From Candidatus Micrarchaeota archaeon (lineage in GTDB: Archaea > Micrarchaeota > Micrarchaeia > Micrarchaeales > CABMGC01): a stretch of 42,003 bases of DNA. Under the pieces are notes generated by a model. It worked only from the letters and a program-made list of their open reading frames with translations, had not been told where the DNA came from and made no database searches. The DNA lies in the NCBI GenBank assembly GCA_964550485.1, contig CAZJZM010000002.1, positions 1 to 42,003 on the forward strand, read 5' to 3'. The translations under genes were made by a program, and so were the position numbers. Each line of letters starts with the position of its first letter. Position 1 is the stretch's first letter. Shown piece by piece: positions 2,934 to 20,307 of this stretch.

Positions 2934-2985
2934 GACAATCACATGGTTATTCATTAGAAGAAGAACTCAAAGAGATGCGATATTA

Positions 2986-3693: not shown

Positions 3694-3701
3694 GCAATAA
3701 C

Positions 3702-4460
3702 ATGATTGATGAAAAAAGAGAGAATCTTGGCAGGGAGATAATGCGAGGACTATACGAGACGGGCATGATCCTCACATGGTACAGGGACAAACCAGAGGGC
3801 TGGGTAATGGCCAGCGGACTCTGGACTCCATTCTACATTACCCTAAGGCTGCTTCCATCGCACCCCGAACTCTACAGGAAGGCAGGAAACGCAATGAGCA
3901 TGCTCCTTGCTGACATAGGATTCAAATCCAACAACAATGACAAGGTGGTAGGGATAGCAATGGCGGGAGTTCCCCTGGCAAACGCAATCACACTAGAATC
4001 CGACATCCCTTCCTTATACACAAGAAAGCTACCGGAAGATGTCAAAACCCCAGAGGACGTTGAAAGGTATGTACAGTCGCACGGCCAGCACGCACTAGTG
4101 GAAGGCGAATTAAAATCAGGAGACAGGCTTGCGCTGGTAGACGACTTGGTAACCAGATTTGACAGCAAACTGCTCGCCATAGGCCAGATAAATCAGGAAA
4201 TCAAGAGAAGGGGGCTCACCGACATCAGGCTAAAGGACATAATAGTGCTGCTGGACAGGGAGCAGGGAGGAGCGGAGAAAGCGAAACAACTGGGATACAG
4301 CCTAACGGCATTCATTCCATTCGCATCAAAAGGGATGGGCTGGCTAAAGGACAGCCTCTCTGAAATCGAGTACAATACAATCGTCGACTATCTGAAGGAC
4401 AGCAAAAAATATCAGGACAAAGTGGTCCAGGAACGGCTGGCCAAGATGGCCCAGAAGTAA
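3702..4460 (+). CDS. pyrE: orotate phosphoribosyltransferase-like protein
   Basis: PRPP-binding loop LALVDDLVTRFDSK, and ASGLWTPFYITLR resembling the OPRTase SG..SP.Y.D.R motif. Directly follows pyrF. Confidence 0.7.
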   Translation: MIDEKRENLGREIMRGLYETGMILTWYRDKPEGWVMASGLWTPFYITLRLLPSHPELYRKAGNAMSMLLADIGFKSNNNDKVVGIAMAGVPLANAITLESDIPSLYTRKLPEDVKTPEDVERYVQSHGQHALVEGELKSGDRLALVDDLVTRFDSKLLAIGQINQEIKRRGLTDIRLKDIIVLLDREQGGAEKAKQLGYSLTAFIPFASKGMGWLKDSLSEIEYNTIVDYLKDSKKYQDKVVQERLAKMAQK

Positions 4461-5660
4461 TCAGGAGCCGAAGACAATCTCCATCGCCTCCTTCACTACA
4501 ACCTCCTTCTTCGCGTCGGAGCTCAGCTTATCGAAAAGCGCAGAAGGATTCAATTTCAAGTCGTACTTGTTCTGCTTCAGCCTCTCAAGGAAGATGCCCA
4601 TGCCGTAATCCCTTATGGAGACGTTTTCCAGTACTCCGTTCCTGAGGTCTTCAGCCTCCTTCGAATCAGTTGTTTCTATTCCGGATTTTGTAATCTCCAC
4701 TATGGCATTCTTGGAATATGAATCCACAATGCCTTTTATCCCTACATCTACATTCCTAAAGCCGTCCTTCAATTTGCCTTCCAAGACAACCCTAATTATC
4801 GGTCTGTCGTGTCCCTCGTCCGCAACAGAGGCTATCTTGCCCTCTATAGCGCCGCTCACTTCCGCAGGGGACATTCCCTCAACGTCGATCTTGACCATGA
4901 TGAACTTGCGCGATTTTATCTTAATGAAAGAATGCTCATTATTTTTCGTATCATAGACAAAAAATCCTTTCTCTTCCTGCTCCCCTTCCCTCAACTGCGT
5001 CAGGACAGTGCTTCCAGGTATGAGAAATTTCTTGCCATGGCACTTCGCCTCTATCTTGCTGTGTATGTGGCCATCCACATAGAGATCAAATCCTGGAGGC
5101 AGCTCTTCCAGGCGGATAAAATCCTCGCTGAAGGGCAGGAACTCATATACCGATTGGTGAAAGAGGAACAAATTAAATGCTCCGACAGTAGGCTTCAGGT
5201 CCATCCTGTCCAACGTCTCTTTGAATCTCTCCTCCGCCGTACCTCCCACCCCATATACTACTACTCTTTCTCCGCCCTTCTCTACAGTTACCTTCGCCTG
5301 GTTGGCGTTAACCAACAAACCTGCAAGATTAAGCAGGTCCACCGGATCGACCTCGCCATCGCTCCTTCTTTCATGGGTTCCCGGTATTGCTACCACTGGG
5401 ATGTCGGTGTATCTTTCTCCCCTTCCTTCAAATCCTGAAACGTTGGCGGCAAATTTCTTTGACGAAAGACGTTTGAAAAGCGTTATCGCCTCTGCAATCA
5501 CCTCGGGCTTTGGATGTCTGTAGTCGAAGATGTCTCCCGCAATAACTATCATGTCGGCGTTCTGGCTCGCCAGCTCCAACGCCTCCTCCGTCTGCCTGAA
5601 GGCGTCTTCACGGAAGCGTTCGTAGCCTATGTGGAAATCCGCAAGAATAGCAATCTTCAT
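4461..5660 (-). CDS. mre11: DNA double-strand-break repair nuclease Mre11 (calcineurin-like metallophosphoesterase)
   Basis: N-terminus MKIAILADFHIG, then IAGDIFD, GTHE and GHIH phosphoesterase motifs. 399 aa. Confidence 0.8.
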   Translation of the reverse strand: MKIAILADFHIGYERFREDAFRQTEEALELASQNADMIVIAGDIFDYRHPKPEVIAEAITLFKRLSSKKFAANVSGFEGRGERYTDIPVVAIPGTHERRSDGEVDPVDLLNLAGLLVNANQAKVTVEKGGERVVVYGVGGTAEERFKETLDRMDLKPTVGAFNLFLFHQSVYEFLPFSEDFIRLEELPPGFDLYVDGHIHSKIEAKCHGKKFLIPGSTVLTQLREGEQEEKGFFVYDTKNNEHSFIKIKSRKFIMVKIDVEGMSPAEVSGAIEGKIASVADEGHDRPIIRVVLEGKLKDGFRNVDVGIKGIVDSYSKNAIVEITKSGIETTDSKEAEDLRNGVLENVSIRDYGMGIFLERLKQNKYDLKLNPSALFDKLSSDAKKEVVVKEAMEIVFGS

Positions 5661-5720
5661 TATAACATCTACTATACATGGCTCCCTACTTTTATAAATA
5701 CCGAGTGCAAAATCCAGAAT

Positions 5721-6584
5721 TCAGATTATTACGTAAAGGAGAATGTTGCCGAACAGGAGAGAAACTACCACGGCTATGAAAGCGAAAAAGGCAAGCGGCA
5801 CGCCGCTGGTGTAAAGGGGAATCTTCCTTCTCACGCCCCTTAGGTCCTGAATGAGCTTATTTGTCACCAGTCTTCCGAAATGCTTCGACTTCTTCGAGAA
5901 GAATTCCAAGTCACTCTTGCTCATGGCGTTTGTCGCGATCATGTCCTCATTGGTCAGCCTGCTTGCTGAGACGTAGGAAATCATCTGCCTGCTTATGGCC
6001 TTCTCAAAGATTATCGTGAGCGCGGAGGCAAGCGCGACTATAAGAATGAGAACCACAGCCACCAATCTTATCCCTGCAAAATACGAGATGAAAGCAAGCA
6101 ACAGGAGATAGGCAACAAACATTCCGAATGCCTGGTACAGTTTAGCCCTACTCAGCTCAGAGAGCCTAAGATACCCTCTGCTGTGCGCCCTTAGAAGATA
6201 GTAGACCACCATTCCCACAACGGCTGCATATCCTGTGGCTATGAATACCGAAAAGATAAAGGGGAATCCGAATTGCTGCACGTTGGACAGGATAGGCATC
6301 GGCTGCAGCGGAAGAAGAAGGCTTATGGTGGCAAACTCGAAGAAGTCTCCTGCTCCCACCAGCCCCTTTCTAAAGAGCACGTATCCCAAAGCGCCTATTA
6401 TCAACGCCATCAGAAGACTGACCTCCATCGTTGCGGTATCATAAGTCAAGGTCACAATGACGCCGATTATCAGGCTGGCATAGACGAAGACATCAGGGAC
6501 GTTTCTCTTGTTGAAGATGTCAAACATGGCGTATGCAAACGCTATAACTAGGAGTATTGCCACTCTCAGAAGGAAAGAAATCAT
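5721..6584 (-). CDS. A24-family prepilin/preflagellin peptidase (PibD/FlaK-like)
   Basis: Polytopic membrane protein. Asp in the first TM region (YAMFDIF) plus a GxGD-type motif (LVGAGDFFEF). 287 aa. Confidence 0.6.
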   Translation of the reverse strand: MISFLLRVAILLVIAFAYAMFDIFNKRNVPDVFVYASLIIGVIVTLTYDTATMEVSLLMALIIGALGYVLFRKGLVGAGDFFEFATISLLLPLQPMPILSNVQQFGFPFIFSVFIATGYAAVVGMVVYYLLRAHSRGYLRLSELSRAKLYQAFGMFVAYLLLLAFISYFAGIRLVAVVLILIVALASALTIIFEKAISRQMISYVSASRLTNEDMIATNAMSKSDLEFFSKKSKHFGRLVTNKLIQDLRGVRRKIPLYTSGVPLAFFAFIAVVVSLLFGNILLYVII

Positions 6585-6791
6585 TACGACACCAGTACAC
6601 TTTGAAGAAAAGATTTAAATAGCAATTGTTTCAATCAATATCATACAAAGTGTGGATAATGTCCTTAACCGCTAGATGGCAAATGTTTACGGCTACCATT
6701 AGATCAGTAGCTATAGCGGTCTTGAAGTGCAATTATAATCCCTCTCATTCTTCTGCCGCTTGCATCGCATAAATCTGTTTTGGTGTTTGAT

Positions 6792-7151
6792 ATGCAAGTG
6801 GCAAAAACTATAGTTAGAGAGGCGTCTGCGATGCAGAAGCCAGTTCAGATCAGCGAGAAGGAGCTAATCCTGCTTTCGGAGATAGGCCTGGAGGCGATCC
6901 CGACCGCGACAAGCTTCGTTGAGTACATAGCCGAGAAATACAGCCTCTCGGCAAGCGGGGTCTGGTACACGCTGAAAAAGCTTAAGGAGAAGAGGGTGGT
7001 GGATTTCACAGAAAGGGGCGAGGAAGACAAGCCCCTCTCGCTCACCGAATTCGGGCGGGGAACCGTAAGGAGGAAGATCTCGGAGTTCAACTTCAGGACT
7101 CCGGGCCTTCCGCGGCCTGGGATGCAGTTCGGGATAGGCGCTCAATTTTAA
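6792..7151 (+). CDS. winged-helix (MarR/TrmB-like) DNA-binding protein
   Basis: wHTH-like core (SFVEYIAEKYSLSASGVWYTLKKLKEKRVVDF). An ATG at 6792 is preferred over TTG 6780. The last 44 codons are duplicated downstream at 8530-8664. Confidence 0.55.
   Translation: MQVAKTIVREASAMQKPVQISEKELILLSEIGLEAIPTATSFVEYIAEKYSLSASGVWYTLKKLKEKRVVDFTERGEEDKPLSLTEFGRGTVRRKISEFNFRTPGLPRPGMQFGIGAQF
7018..7151 (+). repeat. direct repeat copy A (3' end of the wHTH gene)
   Basis: 134 nt align without gaps to 8531-8664. Long identical runs include gaattcgggcggggaaccgtaaggaggaaga and ctcggagttcaacttcaggactccgggccttcc. Confidence 0.9.
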
Positions 7152-7220
7152 GCTCCATTGACACACTTTTGACAGTAGGATATCAAAAGAGCTATATAAC
7201 TTGATATCCTAATATCAATC

Positions 7221-8510
7221 ATGGAGCTAAGCTTAATGGGGATGCAGAACCCCTGGTGGTACAACAGAGAGGCAATAACCAATGATGAAAAGGTAAAGCG
7301 AGTGCTAGCCTCGGGGGAAAGGCTCATCATAGAGCTTGAAGACAAAAACATGATAATGATAGGCCCCAGGCAACTCGGGAAAACAACGGCGTTGAAATAT
7401 GATATCTACAAAAAGATAATTAAGGAAGGAATTGATCCAAAGCGCATACTATACTACTCCTTCGACACCGCACGGGACTATGGCGTGATATCCGAAGTGA
7501 TATCGAGTTTTATAAAAGCAACCGCAGGAAGGAAATACCTATATCTCGACGAGGTAAGCTTTGTCGACGAATGGCAACGCGCCATCAAATTTCTGCTGGA
7601 CTCCAACGAGATGAAGGATGTCAGAGTATATGTCACAGGGTCTGCCTCCATTAATCTTAGGAAAGAGCTTTTCCCAGGCAGGGACATCATTTTAAAGGAA
7701 TTTATGCCTAGCTTCTTCGCGTCTTTTGTGCAATCTTTCGCATCCAAAGACCTTAAAAAGTTTGTAAAGGCAAACATGACGGGCAGCATTGAAGACGTAA
7801 TCGAGAGATCTGAGAAGGCAGTACCCTATTTCGATGAACTTGACAGGCTTTTCCATGTTTTTATGCAGACTGGAGGATTTCCACTCGCCGTATTTGATTA
7901 CTTCGCAGCGGGTTCGATAAGCGAAACGACATTTGATACGCATTGGAACGCCTTCCTCTCAGACATAAGCAAAGCGGAAAGGAGCGTGGAAACTTCAGTT
8001 GCAGTGATCCAGGAGCTTGTCAAAAGCTATAGCTCCAAGATAAACATGAGCAAGACCGCAAGAAACGCCGGAATACCCTCGCACGTTACCGCACGCGAGT
8101 ACATGGAACTCCTAAGAGAACTATTTGTAATCGGATATATTTTTCCAATTAGCGATAGGGGGCTACCTCTCTTCCGCAAGGAGAGGAAAGCATATTTCAC
8201 AGACCCTTTCTTTTTTACATTGTTCTCCAAAAAACTAAATATGCAAATAAACCTGGGGGAATCCAAAGTTGTGGAGGGCATTACGTATTCACATTTAGCG
8301 CACATCATGAAAAACATAGGATACAAATCAAATGGCAGGGAAATAGATTTTGCAAATAATGAAATCGCAGTCGAGGTTAAATGGCAGGAATCCGTAACAA
8401 AATCAGACATACCAAGATCAAACGCAAAAAACAACATTGTTCTAAGCAAATCGGACCGTGGGGAGGGGATAATACCCGTTTCAGTATTCCTTGCCTTATT
8501 GGATATCTAA
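7221..8510 (+). CDS. AAA+ ATPase of the COG1373 type (AAA_14 + DUF4143 nuclease-like C-terminal domain)
   Basis: Walker A GPRQLGKTT and Walker B YLYLDEV. C-terminal REIDF...IAVEVKW is a PD-(D/E)xK-like motif. 429 aa. Confidence 0.8.
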   Translation: MELSLMGMQNPWWYNREAITNDEKVKRVLASGERLIIELEDKNMIMIGPRQLGKTTALKYDIYKKIIKEGIDPKRILYYSFDTARDYGVISEVISSFIKATAGRKYLYLDEVSFVDEWQRAIKFLLDSNEMKDVRVYVTGSASINLRKELFPGRDIILKEFMPSFFASFVQSFASKDLKKFVKANMTGSIEDVIERSEKAVPYFDELDRLFHVFMQTGGFPLAVFDYFAAGSISETTFDTHWNAFLSDISKAERSVETSVAVIQELVKSYSSKINMSKTARNAGIPSHVTAREYMELLRELFVIGYIFPISDRGLPLFRKERKAYFTDPFFFTLFSKKLNMQINLGESKVVEGITYSHLAHIMKNIGYKSNGREIDFANNEIAVEVKWQESVTKSDIPRSNAKNNIVLSKSDRGEGIIPVSVFLALLDI

Positions 8511-8529
8511 CAATTCATTATTAAGTGGT

Positions 8530-8664
8530 AGCGAGGAAGACAAGCCCCTCTTGCCCATTGAATTCGGGCGGGGAACCGTAAGGAGGAAGACCTCGGAGTT
8601 CAACTTCAGGACTCCGGGCCTTCCACGGCCTGGAATACAGATAGGAATAGGTGCGCAGTTCTAG
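8530..8664 (+). pseudogene. orphan 3' fragment of a wHTH-gene paralog (direct repeat copy B)
   Basis: Reads in frame as SEEDKPLLPIEFGRGTVRRKTSEFNFRTPGLPRPGIQIGIGAQF followed by a stop. No start codon or N-terminal part lies upstream. Confidence 0.7.
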
Positions 8665-8829
8665 AATTGCAAATAATCTAATACTAGTACATCCGTTGTG
8701 CAATTTAGCAAAGCTTAAATACCATAGAAGGATAACTATTTACTAGATTATATGATATTCGCTGAACACCCAAATAGGAACACCAAAAACGATCTAACAA
8801 GCATTTCCAGAGGTACAAAAGCGGCGGCT

Positions 8830-9252
8830 ATGACTTTAGTTGCGGCTGTAATAATTCCACTTCTTGGGGCATGCACCGGGTCATCTCATCCATCAGAACG
8901 TTCGTCTACGAGCAACTCTTCATTTCTGCTTCTCTCAAACGGTTCACCTTCAATTCAGTTCCCCCCTACCTACACGCGTTCCTATCTGCCTATTATTCCA
9001 CACCAAAACGGCATATACCTCGGAGAGACAGACAAAGTTCGATACTGGATAATGGCAGAAAGACCAGTAGATGGCAAATGCACATCAGCCTTTGAAACCG
9101 CCGCAAACAGCAGTGATGTTAATAAAGTGAAACTTCCTGAGGTGGTTTTGGCTAGCCATAAGGGCCAAATAGAAAAGCTCAAGAGGGACACATGCAAAGA
9201 CGGAGATGAACTTATCGGGCCAGTATGGCAAACACTTCGACCAAGAACGTAG
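8830..9252 (+). CDS. hypothetical secreted protein with lipobox-like signal
   Basis: MTLVAAVIIPLLGAC at ATG 8830; the track ORF starts at 8752. Same strand as, and just upstream of, the giant surface-protein gene. No family recognised. Confidence 0.35.
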   Translation: MTLVAAVIIPLLGACTGSSHPSERSSTSNSSFLLLSNGSPSIQFPPTYTRSYLPIIPHQNGIYLGETDKVRYWIMAERPVDGKCTSAFETAANSSDVNKVKLPEVVLASHKGQIEKLKRDTCKDGDELIGPVWQTLRPRT

Positions 9253-9381
9253 GTATTATAGAGATTTGGGAAGTTATAGCATAAGAAATTAATATTCAGA
9301 AATATCAACCCAGCGCGCTTCCGATACCATAGTAACATTTTATAAGAGTTATCTTTCAAAGGTAAACGAGGTAAACCAAGC

Positions 9382-12300
9382 GTGTACTTTCTAACAGACA
9401 TTTGTGATGGTGGGGCAACGTCAATATTACACAAACACAAAAGCCTTTTCCGATTTTTACCACTTTTAATACTCTTTATCTCTGCAGGCAGCTCCAGCAC
9501 TGTTTTGGCACAAACAATACCATCTGCAGCGGCATTGTTGCATGTAGGTGTTGCAATAACAGCGCCAACCTCTTACATAGGCGCACTTATGCCACTTCCT
9601 TCGCTAGGCTCTCTTTCCACAACAACGACGAATATCGGCCCACTGCCCAACGCACAGGCAGTCCTGCAAGGAACCACAGACTCAGGAATTTCATTACAGG
9701 TATCATATGCTAACAGCGCTACCCAGGGCCCACAAGTAATATTCGACCTTTTTCCTCAAGGGGCTGGTAACGCGCAGGTCATTCCCAAAAACATATACAT
9801 ATCAGACCCAGGTGTAATGTCTACTTCAGTCGCAATCGGTTCAGGAACATTAACTGGGTTTGCAGTCTGTACGACCTGCGAATCTCCTTTCTTTGCAGGA
9901 GTAACCGTGGTTCCAGTCCCTGGCGGCTTCCAAGTAACCTACAACATCAACGGTGTGGTTACTTCAGAATTTAATTCATGGGGGCAGCCTGGTGTCACCC
10001 CTTCAGTTGGTAGCTTCTTTCAGCCTAGCGGCCAAGCAGTAGGAGGCGACTTTGTAAGTGGTGTAATGGGCGAGATCCAAGTGGCCGGATTCACAGTGGC
10101 TACAATGCCCAGCCCTCCTTCTATCACGTTCATACGCGTATGTACTGACCCATCCTGTAGCACTCCTATTCAAACATCCCAGCCGTATACGGCAGCAGTC
10201 TCCGGCACGTTCAGCGGCGGAACTGAAACCGATGTTGGCCAAGCTTATTACTCCCAAGTAACTATGCCTGGCCCCGGAACCATAACTCTTACTTCCTCCA
10301 CCGGCACAGCCACCATCACCATGGACTCTGACGGAACCATCACCACGGCATGGACTCCGGCCGCCGCTGGAGGAGCGATTGTATCACAACCTCAGGGCTC
10401 CTTTACTCCAGCCGGCAGTTCTGTAGCACAACCCATTCAGATAGGATATGCACCAGGATCGACGGATCTTGGGCCGATACAACCTGTCTACAGCACAGGC
10501 CCCGCACTTCAGGCCCCTTCCTGGGCTCAATCTCCTTGCACCGACGCCGATTGCCTTAATGCCCAGAGCGCGGTAAACAGCTGCTTTTTATATGGCTGCA
10601 GTCAAAATGATTTCCAGCAGGCCGTCAGTGGGTGTATAGATACAAGTGGTTGTAATATCGGAACGTCAGTAGCAGCAGGAACAGTAGGAACAACCCAATC
10701 GTCCGCAATCATCAACTACCTGGGTCCAGAAGAAGGTGAGACATATCCTGTTCCTCAAATGACCGAGGGAGACTACGAACAGCAGCTGGCTTCGCAGAAT
10801 GCAGCGGCATACTTGCAGAAGCAGGATCAGGAGCAAACTGAAGGAGAAATGGGACTTGCCGCATCAGGCTACGGACTGTTACTGAACTGCGCATTCGGAA
10901 AGGCGTCATCCTGCGTGATGGCAATTCCTGGAGCTGCCTTTGCGGCGGCATCTTATTATTATGCATATACCCAAGCATTCGCTCCAGGCGCAAGTCTGTT
11001 CAATGCTGCACTCTCCGCCCTGCAAGTTCCTACGCAGATCATTCAGGCTATAGGCACGGTCTTGGAAGTTCTTCCTTTCGCAACTACCGTAATATCCATA
11101 ATAGAAGGCCCTACAAAGGTTCAGGTTCCATTTCCAACAGTATATTTCAACACCGCATACAACACAATCCCACCAAACATAATCCTGACCAATAGCACAT
11201 TCTACAACTTCTCGCCGGTAGAATCAGTCTACAAGAACAACACCGCAGAGGCACCAAACTACCTAACCTGCCCGATAAACGCTTCGCCGCTGCGCCCCAC
11301 AACCGATCTCTACTTCTACGCGAACAAAAGCACACTGGATGCTGGAGACAAGTGCCTATCCAAGAACACCACCTTCACCTCTGCACTCTACGGCTTTACG
11401 ACCGACATTTCGGTACCTCCCCTTGACGAATTTATTCACATCCTGGTCGAGGCATTTACCGGAGGCTACATCACCGATGTGACCCAACTTCAGATCTCCA
11501 ACCCCGGAGTCCTCACCCTTCAAGACATAGGCTACTTCCCCAGCGTCGACGGACAGCTCTCAAACGGTTGGAACACGAGTTCCTACATCTTCGACCAGGT
11601 GCCATCAACGCCACAACATTCGATCTGGTCGTGGAACCTGGTGCTTGCCAACCTCTCAAACGCCAGTCTTCCAAAGAGTTCTCATCTCTACTTCCAACTA
11701 ATCAAAATCACCGAACCGGGACTCACCTATCCGCCCCCTCCAATCTACGTTGTCCCATGTCTCTACACCGGTCCTTATTTTGAACAGACAACCCTTGACA
11801 GCATCAGCCTCAACTACCTCCCATTCACCGAAACGCTGGAGAATTACTCCCCTATCAACTACAACTCCCAACCAAGGGCAATCTTCGACACAAAGATCTA
11901 CCCCTATCTTCTCTACAATTACCTCCTCTCCGAGAACAACTCCCAGCTGGCAAACCCAAACCTTAGTGGTATGAGTGAAGACGTCTACAGCCCGTGGAAC
12001 TACTACAATCCCGCAAACGCAGAGGACCAGTTCCCTGTCGATCTTCCAAGTGTGCTCTTCGCCAATTCCACCACACATAAAAATGACCTGATAACCCTCC
12101 CGCAAAACGGCATAGGGATTAATGTACAGGCCTTACAGACGCCTGTGCTCATATATGGACAGACCTTCGGGCAGGCCTCATTTACCACATTCATATCCGA
12201 CTCAATCCCCTTCAATCTTTTGATAACAGGCAGCACCTCTACCGGAGTGCCGTATAGCCAAAGCTTCCAGTCATCTACAACAACATTGAATCTAACCAGT

Positions 12301-15300
12301 TATGAACTGCCTCCAGGGAACTACAACTATACCGCCAGCACGACAAACTCAACTGCGATACAGTCCGCGTCTCTGCCTCAAGGCACCACCGTGCTGAAAC
12401 TGCCAACGGCGTCAGTGGCATACAACAGCACCAACCTGATAAACTTCATACAGTACTCCTCATCCTCCACAAACACAGGCGGAACCGGTGGTGAAGGTTC
12501 CCTCCTTCCCGCATCATATACCAACGTAGGTCCATCCGTCTCCTCTCTTTCCACTCAACCAATCACAAACCCAATTGCTATCGCCTCAACCATAAACAAT
12601 TACCTTTACGTGCTTTACTATAACAATAGTCTGGACAGTTATTCCATAGCCGTGATAAGGCTCTATCCCCACGGCACATACAACCCTACTCTGCCGCTTC
12701 CCACTTCCAATGTGACATGCGGCGGACCAGGTTCCTGGTCGATATCCGACTGCGGATCGACATGGAACTCTGAATGGGGGAATTACTGGGACCAGGTCAT
12801 AAACGAAGAGAACAACACCGCCTACGTCCTCAATACAATACCTGTTCCTGACAGTGTATCTAATTCTGGCACATCAGAATCCTTTACTCCATACAGCATC
12901 GCAGCGGACAACGACGGGGACCTCTTCATCTCCGGAGGCACCAATTCCAATACTAGTACAATTCTGCTTAAAATAAATGACGCCGTCGACTCAAACGGAG
13001 ACGTCTGTCTCAATTCTGCATCCTGCGACCAATTTTACTGGGGAAATCTTTCAGGCGTGCCTGGCAGGTTCACGGAGATCGCAGAATCGCCAATCTCCGG
13101 AACCGTGGACCTTGCTGATCCAAGTTCCGGCGCAATTGAGGTATTCGATGGCGAGAACCTGACGTACATTAAGACACTCCCTCTCACCTTCGACAATTAC
13201 ACCGCTGTGAGTGGTATCCCACAACCTTTCTCACAGCAGGCAAACGTCATGGTCCTCTCCGGAGACCTCAACATAACAAAGTGGCTGACCGATGTCGGCC
13301 TATTCGGAATCAAGAACCTTGCTTCCAATCCCAATTCTGATGTCACCGACCAGGAAGGATACCATCACCCACTCGCAATCACCGATGTCAACGGCTATAC
13401 CTACGTCCTTGACGACTGGTCCGGAAATGCGGAAGGAAACAATTTCAACATACTGATGCTGAGGATACTCTCGAACGGTACGAGCATCGACGTTCCTGTA
13501 AATCCATCATTGCTCAATGACGTTTCCATCCTTACTCCACGAGAAAAGGCTATAATCAACTTCGATTCGCAAGGCCTCCAGTTCGATTACCCTCCCTATG
13601 GAATAATACTCTCCGCAAACGTCAGCGGAATTAACTTCTGCTCGTCCACTTCCTGCAAATACAGCCAATCAGACATAAACAGTACCTACTATCCTACCGG
13701 TCCGGAGTTGAATCAGAGTTTCATATACAACCAACATTCCCTCTCCAATTCCCCTGAGATAGGCTTCTCGGTATCGACAGATGGGCAGATGTCAACTTTC
13801 ATTCCTCAAGGAAGCAACAATTTCAAGTACGGAGAATTACTCTTTATGGACCTTAATCCGGTGAACTACACCGGAACGATATCAGGCCTTCCTCCACACG
13901 AATGCTATCTGTCTGTAGACTCGCCAACCTGCGAGGCCTACGACATCGACAGCATAACCCCTCCAATCTATGCAACAGGCGATATATTCAAATATCTGGA
14001 AAACCGCGGTTCGCAGAGTGCGCTGAGTTACACTGTCCAGTACAACAGTCAATTTGCAACATCCAACACCCCTAACTCCGGTCTGAACCAGACCTGCATA
14101 GGTCAACTTTCCAATTTCTCTACGCCAACTTCCTGTTACTCGGCAGGCGCAGAAAACACAATACCATACACATACAACATAACCTCAGCCATTCAGGGAA
14201 ACATCCTTCAAGGAATTGCGTCTCAACAATCCCAGTCAGCAGCCGCCTCCTCAGCCTCCCTCTACTCCATCCTTCAGAGTGTAGTACAGACTCTCGCAGA
14301 GCACATGAACATAATCCATGGACAGCCATTCCTCGGGAACGCTGGAGAATATCTCAACGCTTCCTACCTCTTTCTCAGTACCACATCATCCACTGGCATA
14401 TCGGCCAATACAACCAAATTGTTGGAAAGCCAGATCTCCCTGGTAAACGAACAGGAAAACATCATCATAAACGAGACCAAGATAATGGACCAAGGAGGAA
14501 ATCAGGCAGAGATCAACTCCGAGCTGCAAACCCTTGGTGCCCAGTCAGGTTCATTCGACAGTGCATCTACTGATTCCTCATTGCAAACCCTCGTGGCCCA
14601 AAACGCAACAAACAACACCAAAGCTATGACCGAAACGCTGCAAACCACCGCGGCCCTGGAAACCGCAAACAACACCAAGGCAATCAACTCAACGCTGCAA
14701 ACCCTCGAGGCACTGGCAGCCGCAAACGACACCACAGTGCTGAACGAGACAAAGATATACTTTAACCAGTTGCTGATTTTCGATGTGGAGAAGGACATCG
14801 AACTCCAGGAATTAAGCACTCTAAGTTCTGCTCCGGTAATTACCGGACCCGCAACCGCCAATTCCTCTGAAATAAACCCTCCAATAACAAAGCTTACTTC
14901 GCTCATCTCCGGGCAGGCGATAGTCGCATACGAATATCATTACACCACATTCCAGTGGTGGGGGCCGTTCATCACCATCACTCCGCAATGGAACTGCCCA
15001 TTCTGGGGCTTCCTGCCGTTCGTAGGACCTGTCTACGACCATTACACAACATACGCCTACTCGTTAACGCCCTTCACGATGTCAACCGCACTGCCGACGA
15101 CCATCCAGGGAGGTCCTACCTACCTCCTCCCAGTAAACAGCCAGACCAACTCAAGTTACTACCTTCCAACCCTTGCAGACACGGGTCTTTACCTGAGTCA
15201 GCACATTCTCTTCAACCTTACAAGCGACAGGAGTTTCGGGAGGATCTATGTCGCCAACTCTGGACTACAGAGCAACAACTTTGAGATTCTCAACGCAACG

Positions 15301-16605
15301 CAGCAAAACCGTTACATAATACAGACTGCGCATGTGGGTAACTCCATGTCATACGAGGCAATATCAACAAACGCCATAGGCCCGAACTACGGCAGCCAAT
15401 ACTCAGGCGCGGGAATCCAGGCGACCGACGTACCCTCAAGTTTCCTCTACAATGAGACCCTCCTTACGCCTCCATTTGTAACCAATTACGTGACTCCAAC
15501 GGAATACACAACAGCCCTTTACAGTGACCGGCTCTATCTCTACCTGCCTGAACTCCTAGGCTACCAACGATTGGTCTATGCATTTACGGACGACTTCAAT
15601 AACACAATCTACGCACCTCTGGACGTGGACATAGTCAGGACCACAAGCCTCCTGCTCAACGCGACTCCAGTTGTCAACGTGACCAACACCAACAAGACCA
15701 CCCTGTTCATAACCGGAAGGGCCGGCGAATTGTCATACAACGGCTTCTTCCCCAATCTAAACGGCACAGCAACCTTCATTCCGCTCCCGAACGCCAGTGT
15801 CTACCTCTACTACAACCACAACATAAATTATGTGGGCCTTAACACAGAACAGGATCAGCTCTGCGCCTTCGGAAACCCTTCCTATCCCTACAACACCACT
15901 CCATTCCCGTCCAATTGCACCCTGGCCAATCCAAACTACATCGGAAAGACCCAGGATGCAGGAAACATCAACTACAACCCCCAGTACAATTCCTCAGGCT
16001 TCTGCGCTCCGCCTCCGAACAGTCTGATCAAGAGCACAATAGACTGCAACATCTACGGCGAGGACAATTTCAGCAACCGCATAACCGCATCATGCCCGAC
16101 AGGCGCAAACAACAATCCAAGTTACTGTATCCCCCTATATCTCAACGGAAGTGGTATCTGCACCACCCAACTCGGACTCATAGGCATAGTCAAGACCGAT
16201 TCGGCAGGAGCCTTCAACCTGACTATGAATGCCTGCGGCACCGGCCAGCACAACATCATCGGCCAGTACTACGGCGATTCGATGCAGTTTGCGACTGCCG
16301 ACCAGAACGCGCTCAACCAGAGCGCCGATTCACTTAGCAAAAAACTGGAGGAACTCAATCAAAACGCAGGCGATCCCCAATTCCAAGTTCTGAACTACCA
16401 CTGGTCTCCAAACGTTTCATACTCCCCGTCCTTCCAGTCTGGTTCATTCGCACTCAGCTTCGGAGTCGTCTCCATTTCACTCCTGATCCTGACGATAGTC
16501 ACAATCGCGGCAATACTCCTCATTCACCACCATCGCAACTCCCAAAAATTGAAAAAGAGAAACTCTAGGAAACCCAAAAGAAAGAGAAGGAAACAATCCA
16601 AGTAA
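9382..16605 (+). CDS. giant cell-surface protein (signal peptide, Cys-rich and beta-rich regions, 19-aa repeats, C-terminal TM anchor with Lys/Arg tail)
   Basis: Uninterrupted 2407-codon ORF with a GTG start. N-terminal signal (FRFLPLLILFISAGSSSTVLA-Q). Dozens of N-x-S/T sequons. C-terminal helix VVSISLLILTIVTIAAILLI followed by KKRNSRKPKRKRRKQSK. Confidence 0.8.
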   Translation: MYFLTDICDGGATSILHKHKSLFRFLPLLILFISAGSSSTVLAQTIPSAAALLHVGVAITAPTSYIGALMPLPSLGSLSTTTTNIGPLPNAQAVLQGTTDSGISLQVSYANSATQGPQVIFDLFPQGAGNAQVIPKNIYISDPGVMSTSVAIGSGTLTGFAVCTTCESPFFAGVTVVPVPGGFQVTYNINGVVTSEFNSWGQPGVTPSVGSFFQPSGQAVGGDFVSGVMGEIQVAGFTVATMPSPPSITFIRVCTDPSCSTPIQTSQPYTAAVSGTFSGGTETDVGQAYYSQVTMPGPGTITLTSSTGTATITMDSDGTITTAWTPAAAGGAIVSQPQGSFTPAGSSVAQPIQIGYAPGSTDLGPIQPVYSTGPALQAPSWAQSPCTDADCLNAQSAVNSCFLYGCSQNDFQQAVSGCIDTSGCNIGTSVAAGTVGTTQSSAIINYLGPEEGETYPVPQMTEGDYEQQLASQNAAAYLQKQDQEQTEGEMGLAASGYGLLLNCAFGKASSCVMAIPGAAFAAASYYYAYTQAFAPGASLFNAALSALQVPTQIIQAIGTVLEVLPFATTVISIIEGPTKVQVPFPTVYFNTAYNTIPPNIILTNSTFYNFSPVESVYKNNTAEAPNYLTCPINASPLRPTTDLYFYANKSTLDAGDKCLSKNTTFTSALYGFTTDISVPPLDEFIHILVEAFTGGYITDVTQLQISNPGVLTLQDIGYFPSVDGQLSNGWNTSSYIFDQVPSTPQHSIWSWNLVLANLSNASLPKSSHLYFQLIKITEPGLTYPPPPIYVVPCLYTGPYFEQTTLDSISLNYLPFTETLENYSPINYNSQPRAIFDTKIYPYLLYNYLLSENNSQLANPNLSGMSEDVYSPWNYYNPANAEDQFPVDLPSVLFANSTTHKNDLITLPQNGIGINVQALQTPVLIYGQTFGQASFTTFISDSIPFNLLITGSTSTGVPYSQSFQSSTTTLNLTSYELPPGNYNYTASTTNSTAIQSASLPQGTTVLKLPTASVAYNSTNLINFIQYSSSSTNTGGTGGEGSLLPASYTNVGPSVSSLSTQPITNPIAIASTINNYLYVLYYNNSLDSYSIAVIRLYPHGTYNPTLPLPTSNVTCGGPGSWSISDCGSTWNSEWGNYWDQVINEENNTAYVLNTIPVPDSVSNSGTSESFTPYSIAADNDGDLFISGGTNSNTSTILLKINDAVDSNGDVCLNSASCDQFYWGNLSGVPGRFTEIAESPISGTVDLADPSSGAIEVFDGENLTYIKTLPLTFDNYTAVSGIPQPFSQQANVMVLSGDLNITKWLTDVGLFGIKNLASNPNSDVTDQEGYHHPLAITDVNGYTYVLDDWSGNAEGNNFNILMLRILSNGTSIDVPVNPSLLNDVSILTPREKAIINFDSQGLQFDYPPYGIILSANVSGINFCSSTSCKYSQSDINSTYYPTGPELNQSFIYNQHSLSNSPEIGFSVSTDGQMSTFIPQGSNNFKYGELLFMDLNPVNYTGTISGLPPHECYLSVDSPTCEAYDIDSITPPIYATGDIFKYLENRGSQSALSYTVQYNSQFATSNTPNSGLNQTCIGQLSNFSTPTSCYSAGAENTIPYTYNITSAIQGNILQGIASQQSQSAAASSASLYSILQSVVQTLAEHMNIIHGQPFLGNAGEYLNASYLFLSTTSSTGISANTTKLLESQISLVNEQENIIINETKIMDQGGNQAEINSELQTLGAQSGSFDSASTDSSLQTLVAQNATNNTKAMTETLQTTAALETANNTKAINSTLQTLEALAAANDTTVLNETKIYFNQLLIFDVEKDIELQELSTLSSAPVITGPATANSSEINPPITKLTSLISGQAIVAYEYHYTTFQWWGPFITITPQWNCPFWGFLPFVGPVYDHYTTYAYSLTPFTMSTALPTTIQGGPTYLLPVNSQTNSSYYLPTLADTGLYLSQHILFNLTSDRSFGRIYVANSGLQSNNFEILNATQQNRYIIQTAHVGNSMSYEAISTNAIGPNYGSQYSGAGIQATDVPSSFLYNETLLTPPFVTNYVTPTEYTTALYSDRLYLYLPELLGYQRLVYAFTDDFNNTIYAPLDVDIVRTTSLLLNATPVVNVTNTNKTTLFITGRAGELSYNGFFPNLNGTATFIPLPNASVYLYYNHNINYVGLNTEQDQLCAFGNPSYPYNTTPFPSNCTLANPNYIGKTQDAGNINYNPQYNSSGFCAPPPNSLIKSTIDCNIYGEDNFSNRITASCPTGANNNPSYCIPLYLNGSGICTTQLGLIGIVKTDSAGAFNLTMNACGTGQHNIIGQYYGDSMQFATADQNALNQSADSLSKKLEELNQNAGDPQFQVLNYHWSPNVSYSPSFQSGSFALSFGVVSISLLILTIVTIAAILLIHHHRNSQKLKKRNSRKPKRKRRKQSK
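14521..14750 (+). repeat. four tandem ~57-nt (19-aa) repeats inside the giant gene
   Basis: (c/t)tgcaaacc recurs at 14524, 14582, 14638 and 14695. The peptide units are ELQTLGAQSGSFDSASTDS, SLQTLVAQNATNNTKAMTE, TLQTTAALETANNTKAINS and TLQTLEALAAANDTTVLNE. Confidence 0.8.
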
Positions 16606-16609
16606 AAAC

Positions 16610-16653
16610 CAAACAAAGCTGAGCTTTCACTTTGTATTCTCAAATTTTCCTCC
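16610..16653 (+). repeat. 44-nt hairpin-containing repeat, copy A (intergenic)
   Basis: About 36 of 42 aligned positions match 18989-19030, with one 2-nt indel. Contains the stem acaaag/ctttgt. Confidence 0.7.
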
Positions 16654-16690
16654 AGAGAGCTTATAACTCATCAAGTTCCACAAATCCGAC

Positions 16691-17266
16691 CTAGGAATCA
16701 GTCTCAATCTTCACAAGTAATTCCATAAGCCTGTTCTTTAGATCCTCCTTCGTGCCAGTGTTGTTCAGGACATAGTCGGCCATGCCCATTATCACCACAA
16801 CTCCGTGCTTCTCCTCTTTCTTGTCCAGAAGGAAACCCCGTTTTTCCCTGGTATTGAGCCACCTGAAATCCGCAATGTTCTTTGGATCCTCCGGTTTGGC
16901 CCTCTTTTTCATTCGCTCAAACCTTGTCTCAAAAGGCGACTTGATCGCAATTATCTTTATTCCCTCAACCTTCTTTCTAAGGTAATCCAGTTCGTAGGTG
17001 GTCCTCACACCCATGAGCACCACATGCTTCATGGACTTCCTTATTTTTTTCACGGCATATCTGGAATAGATATCCTTTCCATGCTCCTCCCTCAACCTCC
17101 GTGTGAATTCTCTCGTGGCTCTAGGGTCGTTCAAGGGTATCTTCGCCTTCTTCAGGAGTTCCCTCCAGATATCCCCATACTCGATCACGTTGAAGCCCTC
17201 CTCCCTTAGGGTCTCGGCAACTGTGCTTTTTCCAGAGCCAGGCAATCCAACAACTACGAGTATCAT
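16691..17266 (-). CDS. P-loop nucleotide/nucleoside kinase-like protein (archaeal UPF0200 / dephospho-CoA-kinase-like family)
   Basis: N-terminal P-loop VVVGLPGSGKST. About 190 aa with kinase-like lid segments. Exact substrate unknown. Confidence 0.65.
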   Translation of the reverse strand: MILVVVGLPGSGKSTVAETLREEGFNVIEYGDIWRELLKKAKIPLNDPRATREFTRRLREEHGKDIYSRYAVKKIRKSMKHVVLMGVRTTYELDYLRKKVEGIKIIAIKSPFETRFERMKKRAKPEDPKNIADFRWLNTREKRGFLLDKKEEKHGVVVIMGMADYVLNNTGTKEDLKNRLMELLVKIETDS

Positions 17267-20220: not shown

Positions 20221-20307
20221 GCGGGGGTGGCAGAGCTTGGTCAAATGCGCTGGCTTGAGGTGTCAGTAGCTTTAGTGCTTGCGCGAGTTCAAATCTCGTC
20301 CCCCGCA
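20221..20307 (+). tRNA. tRNA-Leu (anticodon GAG), class II with long variable arm, no intron
   Basis: Hand fold: acceptor GCGGGGG/CCCCCGC, anticodon stem CTGGC/GTCAG, loop TTGAGGT, 16-nt variable arm, T arm GCGAG-TTCAAAT-CTCGT, discriminator A. CCA is not encoded. Confidence 0.85.

What the first reader, a model, noticed from the sequence alone, without database searches (positions are those of the whole stretch)
7018..8664. AAA+/DUF4143 ATPase gene bracketed by a duplicated, selectively conserved gene 3' end (integration-like scar without an integrase)
The last 134 nt of the wHTH gene (7018-7151) recur as a direct repeat at 8531-8664, just after the ATPase gene (7221-8510). Copy B keeps the reading frame and a stop codon but has no 5' part.

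The two copies share 31- and 33-nt identical cores. In the last six sense codons all six differences are synonymous (ggg ata ggc gct caa ttt versus gga ata ggt gcg cag ttc), and the stop codon also differs (taa versus tag). The copies therefore diverged under purifying selection on the peptide ...EFGRGTVRRK.SEFNFRTPGLPRPG.Q.GIGAQF. They are not a simple recent slippage duplication.

Established knowledge: elements that integrate into the 3' end of a gene carry a homologous replacement end and displace the original, giving exactly this geometry.

Inference: there are two possible explanations. One is a ~1.5-kb insertion carrying only the ATPase, whose C-terminal EIDF...EVKW motif is PD-(D/E)xK nuclease-like. 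The other is the remnant of a tandem wHTH-ATPase cassette array. No recombinase is present between the repeats.
Basis: partly seen in the sequence, partly recalled or inferred. Interest (0 to 1): 0.6.

Follow-up and report, generated by a model that had tools for sequence, protein, structure and literature searches.

The report
One-gene defence cassette inserted in gene end
A single ATPase-nuclease gene, from a very common but untested family of candidate anti-virus genes, has been inserted with no recombinase of its own into the end of a conserved regulator gene of a tiny symbiotic archaeon. It brought a spare gene end and pushed the original one downstream, and the same footprint recurs around relatives of this gene in many other microbes.

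Summary
Window 7018-7151 recurs at 8531-8664 (16 differences in 134 nt) and brackets one intact gene, 7221-8510 (AAA_14 + DUF4143; PADLOC candidate defence family PDC-S01). Two other public assemblies reproduce the arrangement.

The wHTH gene is a conserved single-copy core gene of Micrarchaeota, always beside a prepilin peptidase. The ATPase was not found in the two congeners searched for it or beside wHTH in seven congeners, and is patchy across the order. The nearest relative goes straight from wHTH to the kinase gene at window 16697.

The two copies are reciprocal mosaics. Copy A is native on the left and foreign in its last 40 nt. Copy B is native on the right. A 33-nt identical core lies between. 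So the ATPase arrived together with an alternative gene end. The tandem wHTH-ATPase array idea is rejected.

The geometry recurs: 6 of 20 micrarchaeal and 7 of 62 metagenomic family loci have repeats made of tRNA or gene ends, against about 0 of 390 control genes.

The mechanism is unresolved: host homologous recombination, an integrase acting in trans, or the gene's own nuclease. The closest published parallels are e14/icd and "insertion with long target duplication" of restriction-modification units.

This scan has already noted the same footprint on other DNA. I rate it a new variant of a known kind.

The parts
6792..7151 (+). wHTH (MarR/DtxR-like) regulator gene, 119 aa. This is the target gene. 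The probable true start is ATG 6792.
   Evidence: Homologues found in 38 of 41 relatives' genomes, mostly one match each, always beside the A24 prepilin peptidase. The MQVAKTIV start is conserved and several congeners have a TGA just upstream. An identical 119-aa protein is in the public collection.
7018..7151 (+). Repeat copy A (attL-like): the last 134 nt of the intact wHTH gene.
   Evidence: Against the nearest relative L175, the left 61 nt match 58/61 (native) and the right 40 nt only 23/40.
7079..7111 (+). 33-nt core identical in both copies (equals 8592-8624). The recombination breakpoint lies here.
   Evidence: Informative sites switch from A=outgroup (7078) to B=outgroup (7112) across this stretch. 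The Logan k-mer contig breaks at it. It contains a modest hairpin that is not significant (z -0.9 and -2.5).
7112..7151 (+). Imported alternative gene end: the last 13 codons plus TAA, now the functional C-terminus of wHTH.
   Evidence: 10 of 11 differences from copy B are at third codon positions (binomial 1.3e-4). Third-position divergence is 9/13 here against 1/30 upstream (Fisher 1e-5). At six sites copy B, not copy A, shares the state of the nearest relative.
7152..7220 (+). Cassette 5' spacer. It holds a TATA-like box (7193-7199) between inverted repeats TAGGATATCAA (7176-7186) and TTGATATCCTA (7201-7211). This is the presumed promoter and operator.
   Evidence: About 55 nt are conserved with the 70%-identical orthologue L045, and homology is lost further upstream. 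Analogous palindromes sit before the start codon in L027, L029 and L031-L034 and in L041. The regulatory function is inferred.
7221..8510 (+). ATPase-nuclease gene, 429 aa: AAA_14 AAA+ ATPase, helical/wHTH region and DUF4143 PD-(D/E)xK nuclease. Belongs to PADLOC family PDC-S01.
   Evidence: Pfam AAA_14 5.6e-22 and DUF4143 2.1e-7. PADLOC PDC-S01 1.5e-27. Invariant Walker A GPRQxGKTT, Walker B LDE, E352, D376 and E385-x-K387. AF2 model pLDDT 85.7, with Orc1/Cdc6, RFC, RuvB and NLR-like AAA+ hits. Single copy in the genome. GC 43% against 48% for the window.
8531..8664 (+). Repeat copy B (attR-like): the displaced, 5'-less original gene end.
   Evidence: The right 40 nt match the nearest relative 29/40 (native). 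The left part carries four second-position transitions in residues conserved among relatives.
8665..16694 (+). Second lineage-specific segment behind copy B: orf166 (8752-9252) and a 2407-aa surface protein (9382-16605). Not part of the ATPase cassette.
   Evidence: Absent between wHTH and the kinase gene in six congeners and in the nearest relative L175. No third wHTH-end copy lies at its far end.
16697..17266 (-). P-loop kinase gene. This is the conserved right-hand neighbour of wHTH in relatives and marks the empty-site flank.
   Evidence: tblastx shows its homologue 25-100 nt after the wHTH stop in L004-L009 and L175. Pfam AAA_18/AAA_17.

Best explanation
Window 7112-8530 is a minimal mobile cassette with no recombinase. 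It consists of a 40-nt alternative end of the wHTH gene, a 69-nt promoter/operator and one gene for an AAA+ ATPase fused to a PD-(D/E)xK nuclease (family PDC-S01, a candidate anti-virus gene).

The cassette entered the chromosome by recombining with the 3' end of the conserved wHTH gene, inside the 33-nt stretch 7079-7111. As a result the intact gene now ends in cassette-borne codons that encode almost the same peptide. The original end was pushed 1.5 kb downstream as a dead fragment (8531-8664).

Shown:
- the region is an insertion relative to kin;
- the two repeats are reciprocal native/foreign mosaics;
- no recombinase lies between them;
- the same one-gene geometry recurs elsewhere.

Inferred: the recombination was done by machinery outside the cassette. 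The most likely route is host homologous recombination between the chromosome and a cassette that already carried a copy of this target (a small circle, or a linear repeat-gene-repeat fragment from a related cell). This is the route proposed for restriction-modification units that show 'insertion with long target duplication'. The less likely route is a tyrosine integrase supplied in trans. The gene's cellular role is presumed to be defence and is untested.

The confidence given (0.8) is for the shared core claim: an inserted, recombinase-less one-gene cassette that brought its own gene end. The homology-driven route on its own I put at about 0.4.
For: Insertion:
- wHTH homologues are present in 38 of 41 relatives' genomes, with fixed mre11-peptidase-wHTH synteny.
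- In six congeners and in the nearest relative (88% nt identity) the kinase gene follows wHTH directly.
- Close ATPase orthologues occur in about 13 of 151 genomes of the order, in both large families, and in neither of the two congeners searched.
- The 70-72% identical orthologues sit in a different context.
- Cassette GC is 42.4% against 47.7% for the window, and GC3 is 0.505 against 0.59-0.71 in neighbours.

Mosaic repeats:
- Left 61 nt: A 58/61 and B 54/61 identical to the outgroup. Right 40 nt: A 23/40 and B 29/40.
- The right-arm differences are 10/11 at third positions. The left-arm differences are 4/5 at second positions, in residues conserved among relatives.

No recombinase: there is only one ORF between the repeats. 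No PF00589 hit or integrase homologue is present in the 77%-complete genome.

Recurrence:
- The same tight geometry (repeat about 70-90 nt before the start codon and 2-48 nt after the stop) appears at tRNA-Leu in G061 (78 nt), at an antiporter 3' end in G091 (about 100 nt), and at tRNA-Arg and tRNA-Val.
- Seven of 62 metagenomic family loci with GC from 29 to 69% show it, at gene 3' ends (L064, L123), at a 5' end (L128) and at a tRNA-like 3' half that ARAGORN did not call (L121).
- Controls: 0/287 ORFs in this genome and about 0/103 in the metagenomic loci.

For recombination at variable positions rather than a fixed integrase site: copy B's left arm is almost identical to the native sequence at synonymous sites, while copy A's right arm is saturated. 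So the cassette-borne target copy is itself a mosaic.

Published parallels.
Against: - No excised circle, restored empty allele or donor lineage was seen.
- The only empty sites found also lack the 8-kb orf166/giant-protein segment. An exact empty site for the ATPase cassette alone (wHTH end joined to 8665 onwards) was not found.
- About 70% of orthologous loci show no flanking repeat.
- The polarisation rests on about 16 sites and one close outgroup whose tail has a compensated frameshift.
- In related genomes, similar repeat-bounded cassettes at tRNA-Leu lie next to tyrosine integrases. That favours an integrase in trans over homologous recombination.
- The genome is incomplete, so an integrase may simply be unassembled.
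Confidence: 0.8

Rival explanations
1. Site-specific integration by a tyrosine (SSV/pTN3-like) integrase acting in trans. On this view the cassette is a cis-mobilisable, integrase-less hitch-hiker or a decayed remnant (CIME-like), and the repeats are attL and attR.
For: - The geometry is the classical one for integration at a gene 3' end or tRNA 3' end, with a replacement end, as in e14/icd-icdC.
- In G030 three tandem 1.2-1.8-kb units at tRNA-Leu are bounded by partial tRNA repeats. The unit next to the tRNA holds an integrase whose ORF overlaps the tRNA. The other two hold only an ATPase_2-family gene or an AbiE pair.
- G013, G009 and G034 are similar.
- CIMEs and tandem accretion are established in bacteria.
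Against: - No integrase was found in G000 (77% complete) or in G061 (90% complete, 9 contigs), which has the tRNA-Leu case.
- A fixed crossover site predicts that the element's left arm is element-owned and neutrally diverged. Instead it is native-like at synonymous sites.
- Consistent minimal boundaries around a single gene, across lineages with GC from 29 to 69%, are not expected from random decay of larger elements.
Confidence: 0.25
2. The ATPase-nuclease mobilises itself. Its PD-(D/E)xK nuclease and AAA+ motor would cut the target, or excise the unit at the repeats, so that insertion with a long duplication is a property of the gene family (a selfish one-gene element).
For: - Flanking repeats are strongly enriched for this family (13 of 82 loci against about 0 of 390 controls) across distant lineages.
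- The nuclease and Walker residues are invariant.
- A private palindromic operator lies at a fixed distance from the cassette edge.
- Nuclease-bearing restriction-modification units show the same footprint.
Against: - AbiE pairs and other genes without this nuclease are bounded in the same way in related genomes.
- No conserved terminal recombination motif was found.
- No biochemical precedent is known, and most family members lack repeats.
Confidence: 0.15
3. No mobile element is involved. A local tandem duplication or rearrangement of the wHTH end happened in situ, followed by decay of copy B and ordinary divergence, with the ATPase acquired by unrelated gene transfer.
For: All polarisable non-synonymous differences are derived in copy B, as expected for a decaying duplicate.
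Against: - Third-position divergence is 1/30 in codons 2-31 but 9/13 in codons 32-44 (Fisher 1e-5), which is incompatible with a single age.
- Copy A's tail, not copy B's, is the outlier against the nearest relative.
- The same architecture recurs at unrelated targets.
Confidence: 0.07
4. Remnant of a tandem array of wHTH-ATPase cassettes.
For: A wHTH-end fragment follows the ATPase.
Against: - wHTH is a conserved, syntenic core gene that is not paired with the ATPase in any of the 19 relatives' wHTH loci examined.
- There is a single ATPase and a single wHTH in the genome.
- ATPase orthologues elsewhere are not next to wHTH genes.
Confidence: 0.02

Closest known systems
Insertion with long target duplication of restriction-modification gene units (Nobusato et al. 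2000, cited as ref. 37 in the paper read; Furuta, Abe and Kobayashi 2010, PMC2853133, read)
   Same: - Nuclease-bearing defence genes are flanked by long, variable direct repeats (30-420 bp).
- The repeats correspond to a single copy in genomes that lack the insert.
- No transposase or integrase lies inside.
- The repeats often overlap a gene's 3' end or a tRNA, and the insert GC deviates from the genome.
- The authors proposed a cycle of invasion, amplification and release.
   Different: - The cargo here is a one-gene ATPase-nuclease (PDC-S01), not a restriction-modification pair.
- The host is a DPANN archaeon. No archaeal case survived that paper's screen.
- The repeats are not a plain duplication. 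Copy A's last 40 nt are a diverged, selection-shaped allele, so the cassette arrived already carrying this target. That is indirect evidence for the re-invasion step, which the paper says lacks evidence.
e14 prophage (and phage 21) in the E. coli icd gene, with the displaced icdC fragment (Hill et al. 1989, as summarised in PMC13626634)
   Same: - Integration into the 3' end of a protein-coding gene.
- The element supplies an alternative end that differs mostly synonymously.
- The original end survives as a downstream pseudogene fragment.
- Excision would recreate a chimeric gene.
   Different: e14 is a 15-kb prophage with its own integrase. Here the unit is 1.4-1.5 kb with one gene and no recombinase.
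CIMEs (cis-mobilisable elements) and tandem accretion at tRNA 3' ends (Guedon et al. 2017 review, PMC5704250)
   Same: Integrase-less units keep attL and attR. Tandem arrays sit at the 3' end of a tRNA or other gene, as seen in G030, G013 and G034.
   Different: CIMEs are decay products of ICEs or IMEs in bacteria. Here the units are intact, minimal one-gene cassettes with consistent boundaries, and no cognate integrase was found in this genome.
PDC-S01 (PADLOC phage-defence candidate; COG1373, AAA_14 + DUF4143)
   Same: The protein is a clear member of the family. The family is described as an ATPase fused to a PD-(D/E)xK domain, as the fourth most common defence candidate, and as enriched in Archaea (PMC12988326).
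   Different: The literature I could search says nothing about these genes lying in repeat-bounded cassettes or about how they move. Anti-phage activity is itself unvalidated.
Integron gene cassettes
   Same: One promoter-proximal gene per unit, and arrays of short cassettes next to a recombinase in some relatives (G030).
   Different: There is no attC-like conserved structured site and no integron integrase. The repeats here are pieces of the target gene.

Membership tests
PDC-S01 / COG1373 (AAA_14 + DUF4143 ATPase-nuclease) | N-terminal AAA_14 P-loop ATPase domain with Walker A and Walker B motifs | tested here: met
   Pfam PF13173 5.6e-22, above cut-off. GPRQLGKTT and LDE are invariant in 12 orthologues. 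The AF2 model has an AAA+ fold with Orc1/Cdc6, RFC and RuvB hits.
PDC-S01 / COG1373 (AAA_14 + DUF4143 ATPase-nuclease) | C-terminal DUF4143 domain with PD-(D/E)xK catalytic residues | tested here: met
   PF13635 31.3 bits against a cut-off of 28.1. E352, D376, E385 and K387 are invariant. DUF4143 is listed in the PD-(D/E)XK superfamily (PMC3424549).
PDC-S01 / COG1373 (AAA_14 + DUF4143 ATPase-nuclease) | Match to the PADLOC PDC-S01 profile | tested here: met
   PDLC04787 at 1.5e-27, plus six further PDC-S01 models.
PDC-S01 / COG1373 (AAA_14 + DUF4143 ATPase-nuclease) | Protects cells against viruses | not testable with these tools
   The literature states that validation is pending.
Integrase-type site-specific integrative element | Direct repeats (attL/attR) derived from the 3' end of a tRNA or protein gene, with the gene restored by an element-borne end | tested here: met
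Integrase-type site-specific integrative element | Recombinase gene inside the element | tested here: not met
   The only ORF between the repeats is the ATPase. There is no PF00589 hit in the genome and no tblastn hit with 11 micrarchaeal integrases.
Integrase-type site-specific integrative element | Empty site with one att copy in relatives | tested here: inconclusive
   Relatives have a single wHTH end followed by the kinase gene, but they also lack 8665-16694. No allele joining wHTH directly to 8665 onwards was found.
Integrase-type site-specific integrative element | Excision or circular junction detectable in reads | not testable with these tools
The 1508-nt Logan contig ends at the repeated 33-mer and is uninformative.
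Insertion with long target duplication (restriction-modification type, Furuta et al. 2010) | Repeat longer than 30 bp flanking a defence unit shorter than 20 kb, with no mobility genes | tested here: met
   134-nt repeat, 1.5-kb unit, one gene.
Insertion with long target duplication (restriction-modification type, Furuta et al. 2010) | Both repeats are copies of the single target sequence of the uninserted genome | tested here: inconclusive
   This holds for 7018-7111 (95% identity between copies, both native-like). It fails for 7112-7151, where copy A is a diverged allele.
IS / DNA transposon | Transposase, terminal inverted repeats and a short fixed-length target duplication | tested here: not met
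   There is no transposase domain. No terminal inverted repeats lie at the unit's ends. Repeat lengths range from 20 to 195 nt across loci.

The most novel reading that the evidence does not exclude
PDC-S01 (AAA_14-DUF4143) genes are autonomous one-gene selfish elements, not only defence genes. The ATPase-nuclease, guided by its private operator, would promote its own insertion and excision through breaks repaired on long target repeats. The repeats then serve as portable homology arms that let the cassette re-invade the same gene in related cells. This window would preserve such a re-invasion as a mosaic repeat.
Probability: 0.18. Interest if true: 0.85.

Novelty: new variant of a known kind. 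Interest (0 to 1): 0.62.

Why it matters
PDC-S01 is reported as the fourth most common candidate defence gene in prokaryotes and is enriched in Archaea (PMC12988326). Neither its function nor its means of spread is known.

This locus shows, in a genome-reduced DPANN symbiont, that such a gene travels as a promoter-plus-gene unit of about 1.4 kb and lands in the end of an essential-looking regulator gene without breaking it. It does so by carrying a spare gene end.

The mosaic repeats are comparative evidence for a step so far only hypothesised for restriction-modification units: a repeat-bounded defence cassette leaves one genome and re-enters the same site in another by homology.

If this is general, it would explain how single defence genes move between small genomes in which no recombinase could be detected (these MAGs are incomplete). 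It would also give a simple sequence signature, a gene-end or tRNA-end repeat 70-90 nt before the start codon and fewer than 50 nt after the stop, for finding recent gains.

Tried and rejected
- **Third repeat copy.** I searched the far end of the giant-protein segment for a third wHTH-end copy. None exceeds shuffled controls.
- **Structured RNA.** The repeat is not an RNA gene. Rfam gives no hit at E<=1 over 6500-9400, and the nearest tRNA is 11.5 kb away, at 20221.
- **Hairpin in the core.** It folds but is not better than shuffles (z -0.9 and -2.5).
- **Integrase search.** PF00589 and 11 micrarchaeal integrases find nothing in G000. The only hits are tRNA-overlap artefacts.
- **Donor lineage.** No wHTH in 5.8 billion proteins ends in the GMQFGIGAQF tail apart from this organism's own. 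The closest ATPase orthologues (70-73%) are not next to wHTH.
- **Empty sites for other cassettes.** For the G061 tRNA-Leu cassette, serS-tRNA-Leu synteny is conserved but the far flank is not shared. For the G091 antiporter cassette, only the antiporter is shared.
- **The 1508-nt Logan contig.** I considered it as a possible circle and rejected it. It ends exactly at the repeated 33-mer, as a k=31 graph would.
- **Homology searches.** A PDB sequence search gave no hit. NCBIfam gave none. The only PHROG hit was a spurious P-loop match.
- **Literature.** The search term 'AAA_14' returned only noise.
Full report
**Observation**

The 134 nt at 7018-7151 recur at 8531-8664, with a start-to-start spacing of 1513 nt and 89% identity. 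There are 16 differences.

These are the only two copies in the genome. The genome is a 1.37-Mb Micrarchaeota MAG in 306 contigs, 77% complete, and the window is its whole contig C2. The organism is named from the record titles of the closest ATPase loci.

One ORF lies between the copies, 7221-8510. Among 288 ORFs of 300-650 aa in this genome it is the only one with a flanking direct repeat scoring 20 or more.

The arrangement is reproduced in two other public assemblies. ENA contig ERZ27250145:k141_473565 is 99.994% identical over window 1062-17151. A Logan contig of SRR6946416 equals 7082-8589. So the repeat is not an artefact of one assembly.

**The genes**

The upstream gene is a small winged-helix regulator. 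Its likely start is ATG 6792, giving 119 aa. The MQVAKTIV start is conserved, and several congeners have a stop codon just before it.

This gene has a match in 38 of 41 related genomes of the family and order, usually a single one. It always lies next to an A24 prepilin peptidase and mre11.

The middle gene has an AAA_14 ATPase domain and a DUF4143 domain. DUF4143 is listed in the PD-(D/E)XK nuclease superfamily (PMC3424549). In 12 orthologues the Walker A and B motifs and E352, D376, E385 and K387 are invariant.

An AlphaFold model (pLDDT 85.7) shows an AAA+ core, a helical/wHTH region and an alpha-beta nuclease core. Foldseek finds Orc1/Cdc6, RFC, RuvB and NLR-type ATPases.

PADLOC places the protein in PDC-S01 (1.5e-27). 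A 2026 survey describes PDC-S01 as an ATPase fused to a PD-(D/E)xK domain, as the fourth most common defence candidate, as enriched in Archaea, and as experimentally unvalidated (PMC12988326).

**It is an insertion**

In six congeners the homologue of window gene 16697-17266 (a P-loop kinase on the minus strand) starts within a few tens of bases of the wHTH stop.

The nearest relative available has 90% amino-acid and 88% nucleotide identity. It appears on a JGI contig and on a second contig of the same ENA sample. There the wHTH stop is followed by 97 nt and then the kinase 3' end.

So window 7152-16694 is lineage-specific. It contains the ATPase unit, copy B, orf166 and a 2407-aa surface protein. 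No third wHTH-end copy closes the distal segment. I therefore read it as two separate events, with the ATPase unit the later one.

Close ATPase orthologues (46-72% identity) occur in about 13 of 151 genomes of the order, in both large families, and in neither of the two congeners searched. The 70-72% identical orthologues sit in front of a membrane-protein gene, not after wHTH. A 62% orthologue lies between an IS630-type transposase and ribosomal protein genes.

The unit has 42.4% GC against 47.7% for the window. Its GC3 is 0.505 against 0.59-0.71 for the neighbouring core genes.

**What the two copies say**

The differences fall into two blocks.

- *Left block (codons 8-21).* There are five differences. 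Four are second-position transitions that change S, L, T and I in copy B. Copy A keeps PLSLT, as do all seven congeners, and keeps I in KKISEF, as do the three closest relatives (L175, G002, G006).
- *Right block (codons 32-45).* There are eleven differences, ten at third positions. The peptide GLPRPG(M/I)Q(F/I)GIGAQF is kept.

Third-position divergence is 1/30 in codons 2-31 and 9/13 in codons 32-44 (Fisher 1e-5). A single duplication date cannot explain both blocks.

Against the nearest relative the pattern is reciprocal:

| Segment | Copy A | Copy B |
|---|---|---|
| Left 61 nt | 58/61 | 54/61 |
| Core 33 nt | 31/33 | 31/33 |
| Right 40 nt | 23/40 | 29/40 |

At six right-arm sites copy B shares the relative's state, namely CCA, ATA (two sites), GCG, CAG and TTC.

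So copy A is native up to the core and foreign after it, while copy B's tail is the native one. The ATPase therefore came in together with an alternative end of this same gene, shaped by selection in another lineage. The breakpoint lies in 7079-7111.

Copy B's left arm is native-like at synonymous sites and carries a few random-looking hits. This fits a displaced native copy, or a target copy on the cassette that was itself a mosaic. It fits poorly with an integrase-type attP arm that is never exchanged.

**The pattern recurs**

*In Micrarchaeota:*
- G061 has the ATPase between an intact tRNA-Leu(TAG) and a 78-nt partial copy of it at 95% identity.
- G091 has it between about 100-nt copies of the 3' end of an antiporter gene.
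- Three further loci have repeats of 20-39 nt: at tRNA-Arg, at tRNA-Val, and one made of a fragment of the 5' region of a membrane-protein gene.
- Nine of 16 loci have a tRNA within the 1.5-kb flanks. By my own rough estimate from tRNA density, about three would be expected.

*In metagenomes.* Of the 80 metagenomic loci found with the family alignment, 61 intact family ORFs with adequate flanks could be tested, and six have significant flanking repeats. A seventh is a family member that my HMM missed. The repeats are:
- 3' ends of protein genes (L064, L123);
- the first 12 codons of the downstream gene (L128);
- a tRNA-like 3' half, read from the sequence and not called by ARAGORN (L121);
- unassigned sequence (L077, L086, L104).

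These contigs range from 29 to 69% GC.

*Controls.* No other ORF in G000 (0 of 287) and about none of 103 other ORFs in the same metagenomic loci show such repeats.

*Boundaries.* In the window and in five of the nine other repeat-bounded loci compared, the upstream repeat ends 69-89 nt before the start codon. In all but one, the downstream repeat starts 2-70 nt after the stop. In the micrarchaeal units the upstream spacer holds palindromes around a TATA-like box. I take this to be a self-contained promoter and operator. That is an inference.

**Mechanism**

Nothing between the repeats can be called a recombinase, apart from the nuclease domain of the ATPase itself.

G000 has no tyrosine recombinase that I could detect. 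Neither does G061, which is 90% complete. Both are MAGs, so absence is not proven.

Related genomes do show tRNA-Leu loci with tandem 1-2-kb units bounded by partial tRNA repeats. In G030 the unit next to the tRNA carries an integrase whose ORF overlaps the tRNA. The next two units carry only an ATPase_2-family gene or an AbiEi/AbiEii pair. G009, G013 and G034 are similar.

So repeat-bounded small defence cassettes are not confined to the DUF4143 family in these archaea. This argues against mobilisation by the ATPase alone and keeps an integrase in trans in play.

On the other hand, three things fit a different route better:
- the mosaic left arm;
- the wide taxonomic spread;
- the consistent minimal boundaries.

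That route is the one Kobayashi and colleagues proposed for restriction-modification units showing 'insertion with long target duplication': long, variable repeats, no mobility genes, and often gene 3' ends or tRNAs as targets (PMC2853133). On this route, host homologous recombination inserts a cassette that already carries a copy of the target.

A small circle crossing over once would give the observed reciprocal mosaic. So would a linear repeat-gene-repeat fragment crossing over once in each repeat with the single target copy.

My estimate, given that the unit is an inserted cassette (about 0.8):

| Route | Probability |
|---|---|
| Homology-driven insertion | about 0.4 |
| Integrase in trans | about 0.25 |
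| Self-promoted by the nuclease | about 0.15 |

**Comparison with what is known**

The gene-end replacement is the same logic as e14 in icd with its icdC fragment (PMC13626634). The integrase-less state resembles CIMEs (PMC5704250). The footprint matches restriction-modification units with long target duplication.

What differs is the cargo (one PDC-S01 gene), the host (a DPANN archaeon, whereas that restriction-modification survey retained no archaeal case), and the mosaic repeat that records arrival from another lineage.

I found no paper that links DUF4143, COG1373 or PDC-S01 with such cassettes. The library holds only open-access papers.

Notes from this scan report the same footprint around DUF4143 genes in many other genomes, including a gene-3'-end case in another small archaeon. 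I used them as leads only. One pointed me to the restriction-modification literature, which I then read myself.

**Verdict**

- The feature is a real, recurrent, recombinase-less one-gene cassette. I class it as a new variant of a known kind of event.
- The mobilising activity is unresolved.

Noticed in passing
window 8665-16694: A second lineage-specific segment, orf166 plus a 2407-aa surface protein, lies between copy B and the kinase gene. It is absent in six congeners and in the nearest relative. No repeat of the wHTH end closes it.
   Followed up: partly
L164 (G030:C1:203000-212500) 3208-7965: tRNA-Leu(TAG) beside serS heads an array of three 1.2-1.8-kb units, each bounded by partial tRNA repeats of 123, 31 and 43 nt. 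One unit holds a tyrosine integrase whose ORF overlaps the tRNA, plus two small ORFs. One holds a lone ATPase_2-family gene. One holds an AbiEii/AbiEi pair. It looks like an integron-like accretion of defence cassettes.
   Followed up: partly
L165 (G009:C29) 1601-3210; L167 (G013:C23) 1958-4311; L166 (G034:C21) 1495-3193: AbiEi/AbiEii pairs or small ORFs are enclosed between a tRNA-Leu and a 30-55-nt copy of its 3' end, 100% identical in G009. No integrase lies inside the unit.
   Followed up: partly
own genome contig C36, 6076-8126: This is a second locus in the same genome with tandem repeat-bounded small units. 68-nt copies lie at 6076-6143 and 8059-8126, and a 32-nt copy lies at 7202-7233. 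They enclose a HEPN plus HTH pair and a methyltransferase-like gene (not tested against Pfam). The contig ends 9 nt after the last repeat.
   Followed up: partly
One copy follows the giant gene's stop, and the other forms the 3' end of the minus-strand gene 18988-19596. By eye the two are similar, but blastn-short did not pair them at E<0.01, and neither occurs elsewhere in the genome.
   Followed up: partly
window 7070-7099: Thirty bases of the wHTH gene (AAGATCTCGGAGTTCAACTTCAGGACTCCG) are almost invariant in three species, even at third codon positions, although those species share only 73-79% protein identity. The stretch holds a CGGAGT...ACTCCG stem, but the fold is not better than shuffles.
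   Followed up: partly
L175 1160-1206 versus window 8625-8664: The nearest relative's wHTH differs from this one at 4 of the first 104 residues but at about 8 of the last 15. At the DNA level the tail looks like a compensated frameshift (ATAAGGATAAGG versus ATAGGAATAGGT).
   Followed up: no
L104 752-5206: A 29%-GC metagenomic contig carries three AAA_14-type ATPase genes in a row. The third is bracketed by 96-nt direct repeats.
   Followed up: no
L044 1-747 and 3954-5351: The closest orthologue (72%) is preceded by a truncated TnpB-like ORF with a zinc-ribbon C-terminus (judged by eye). About 1.9 kb downstream, beyond a 619-aa membrane-protein gene, lies a second, divergent AAA_14-type ATPase on the other strand.
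   Followed up: no
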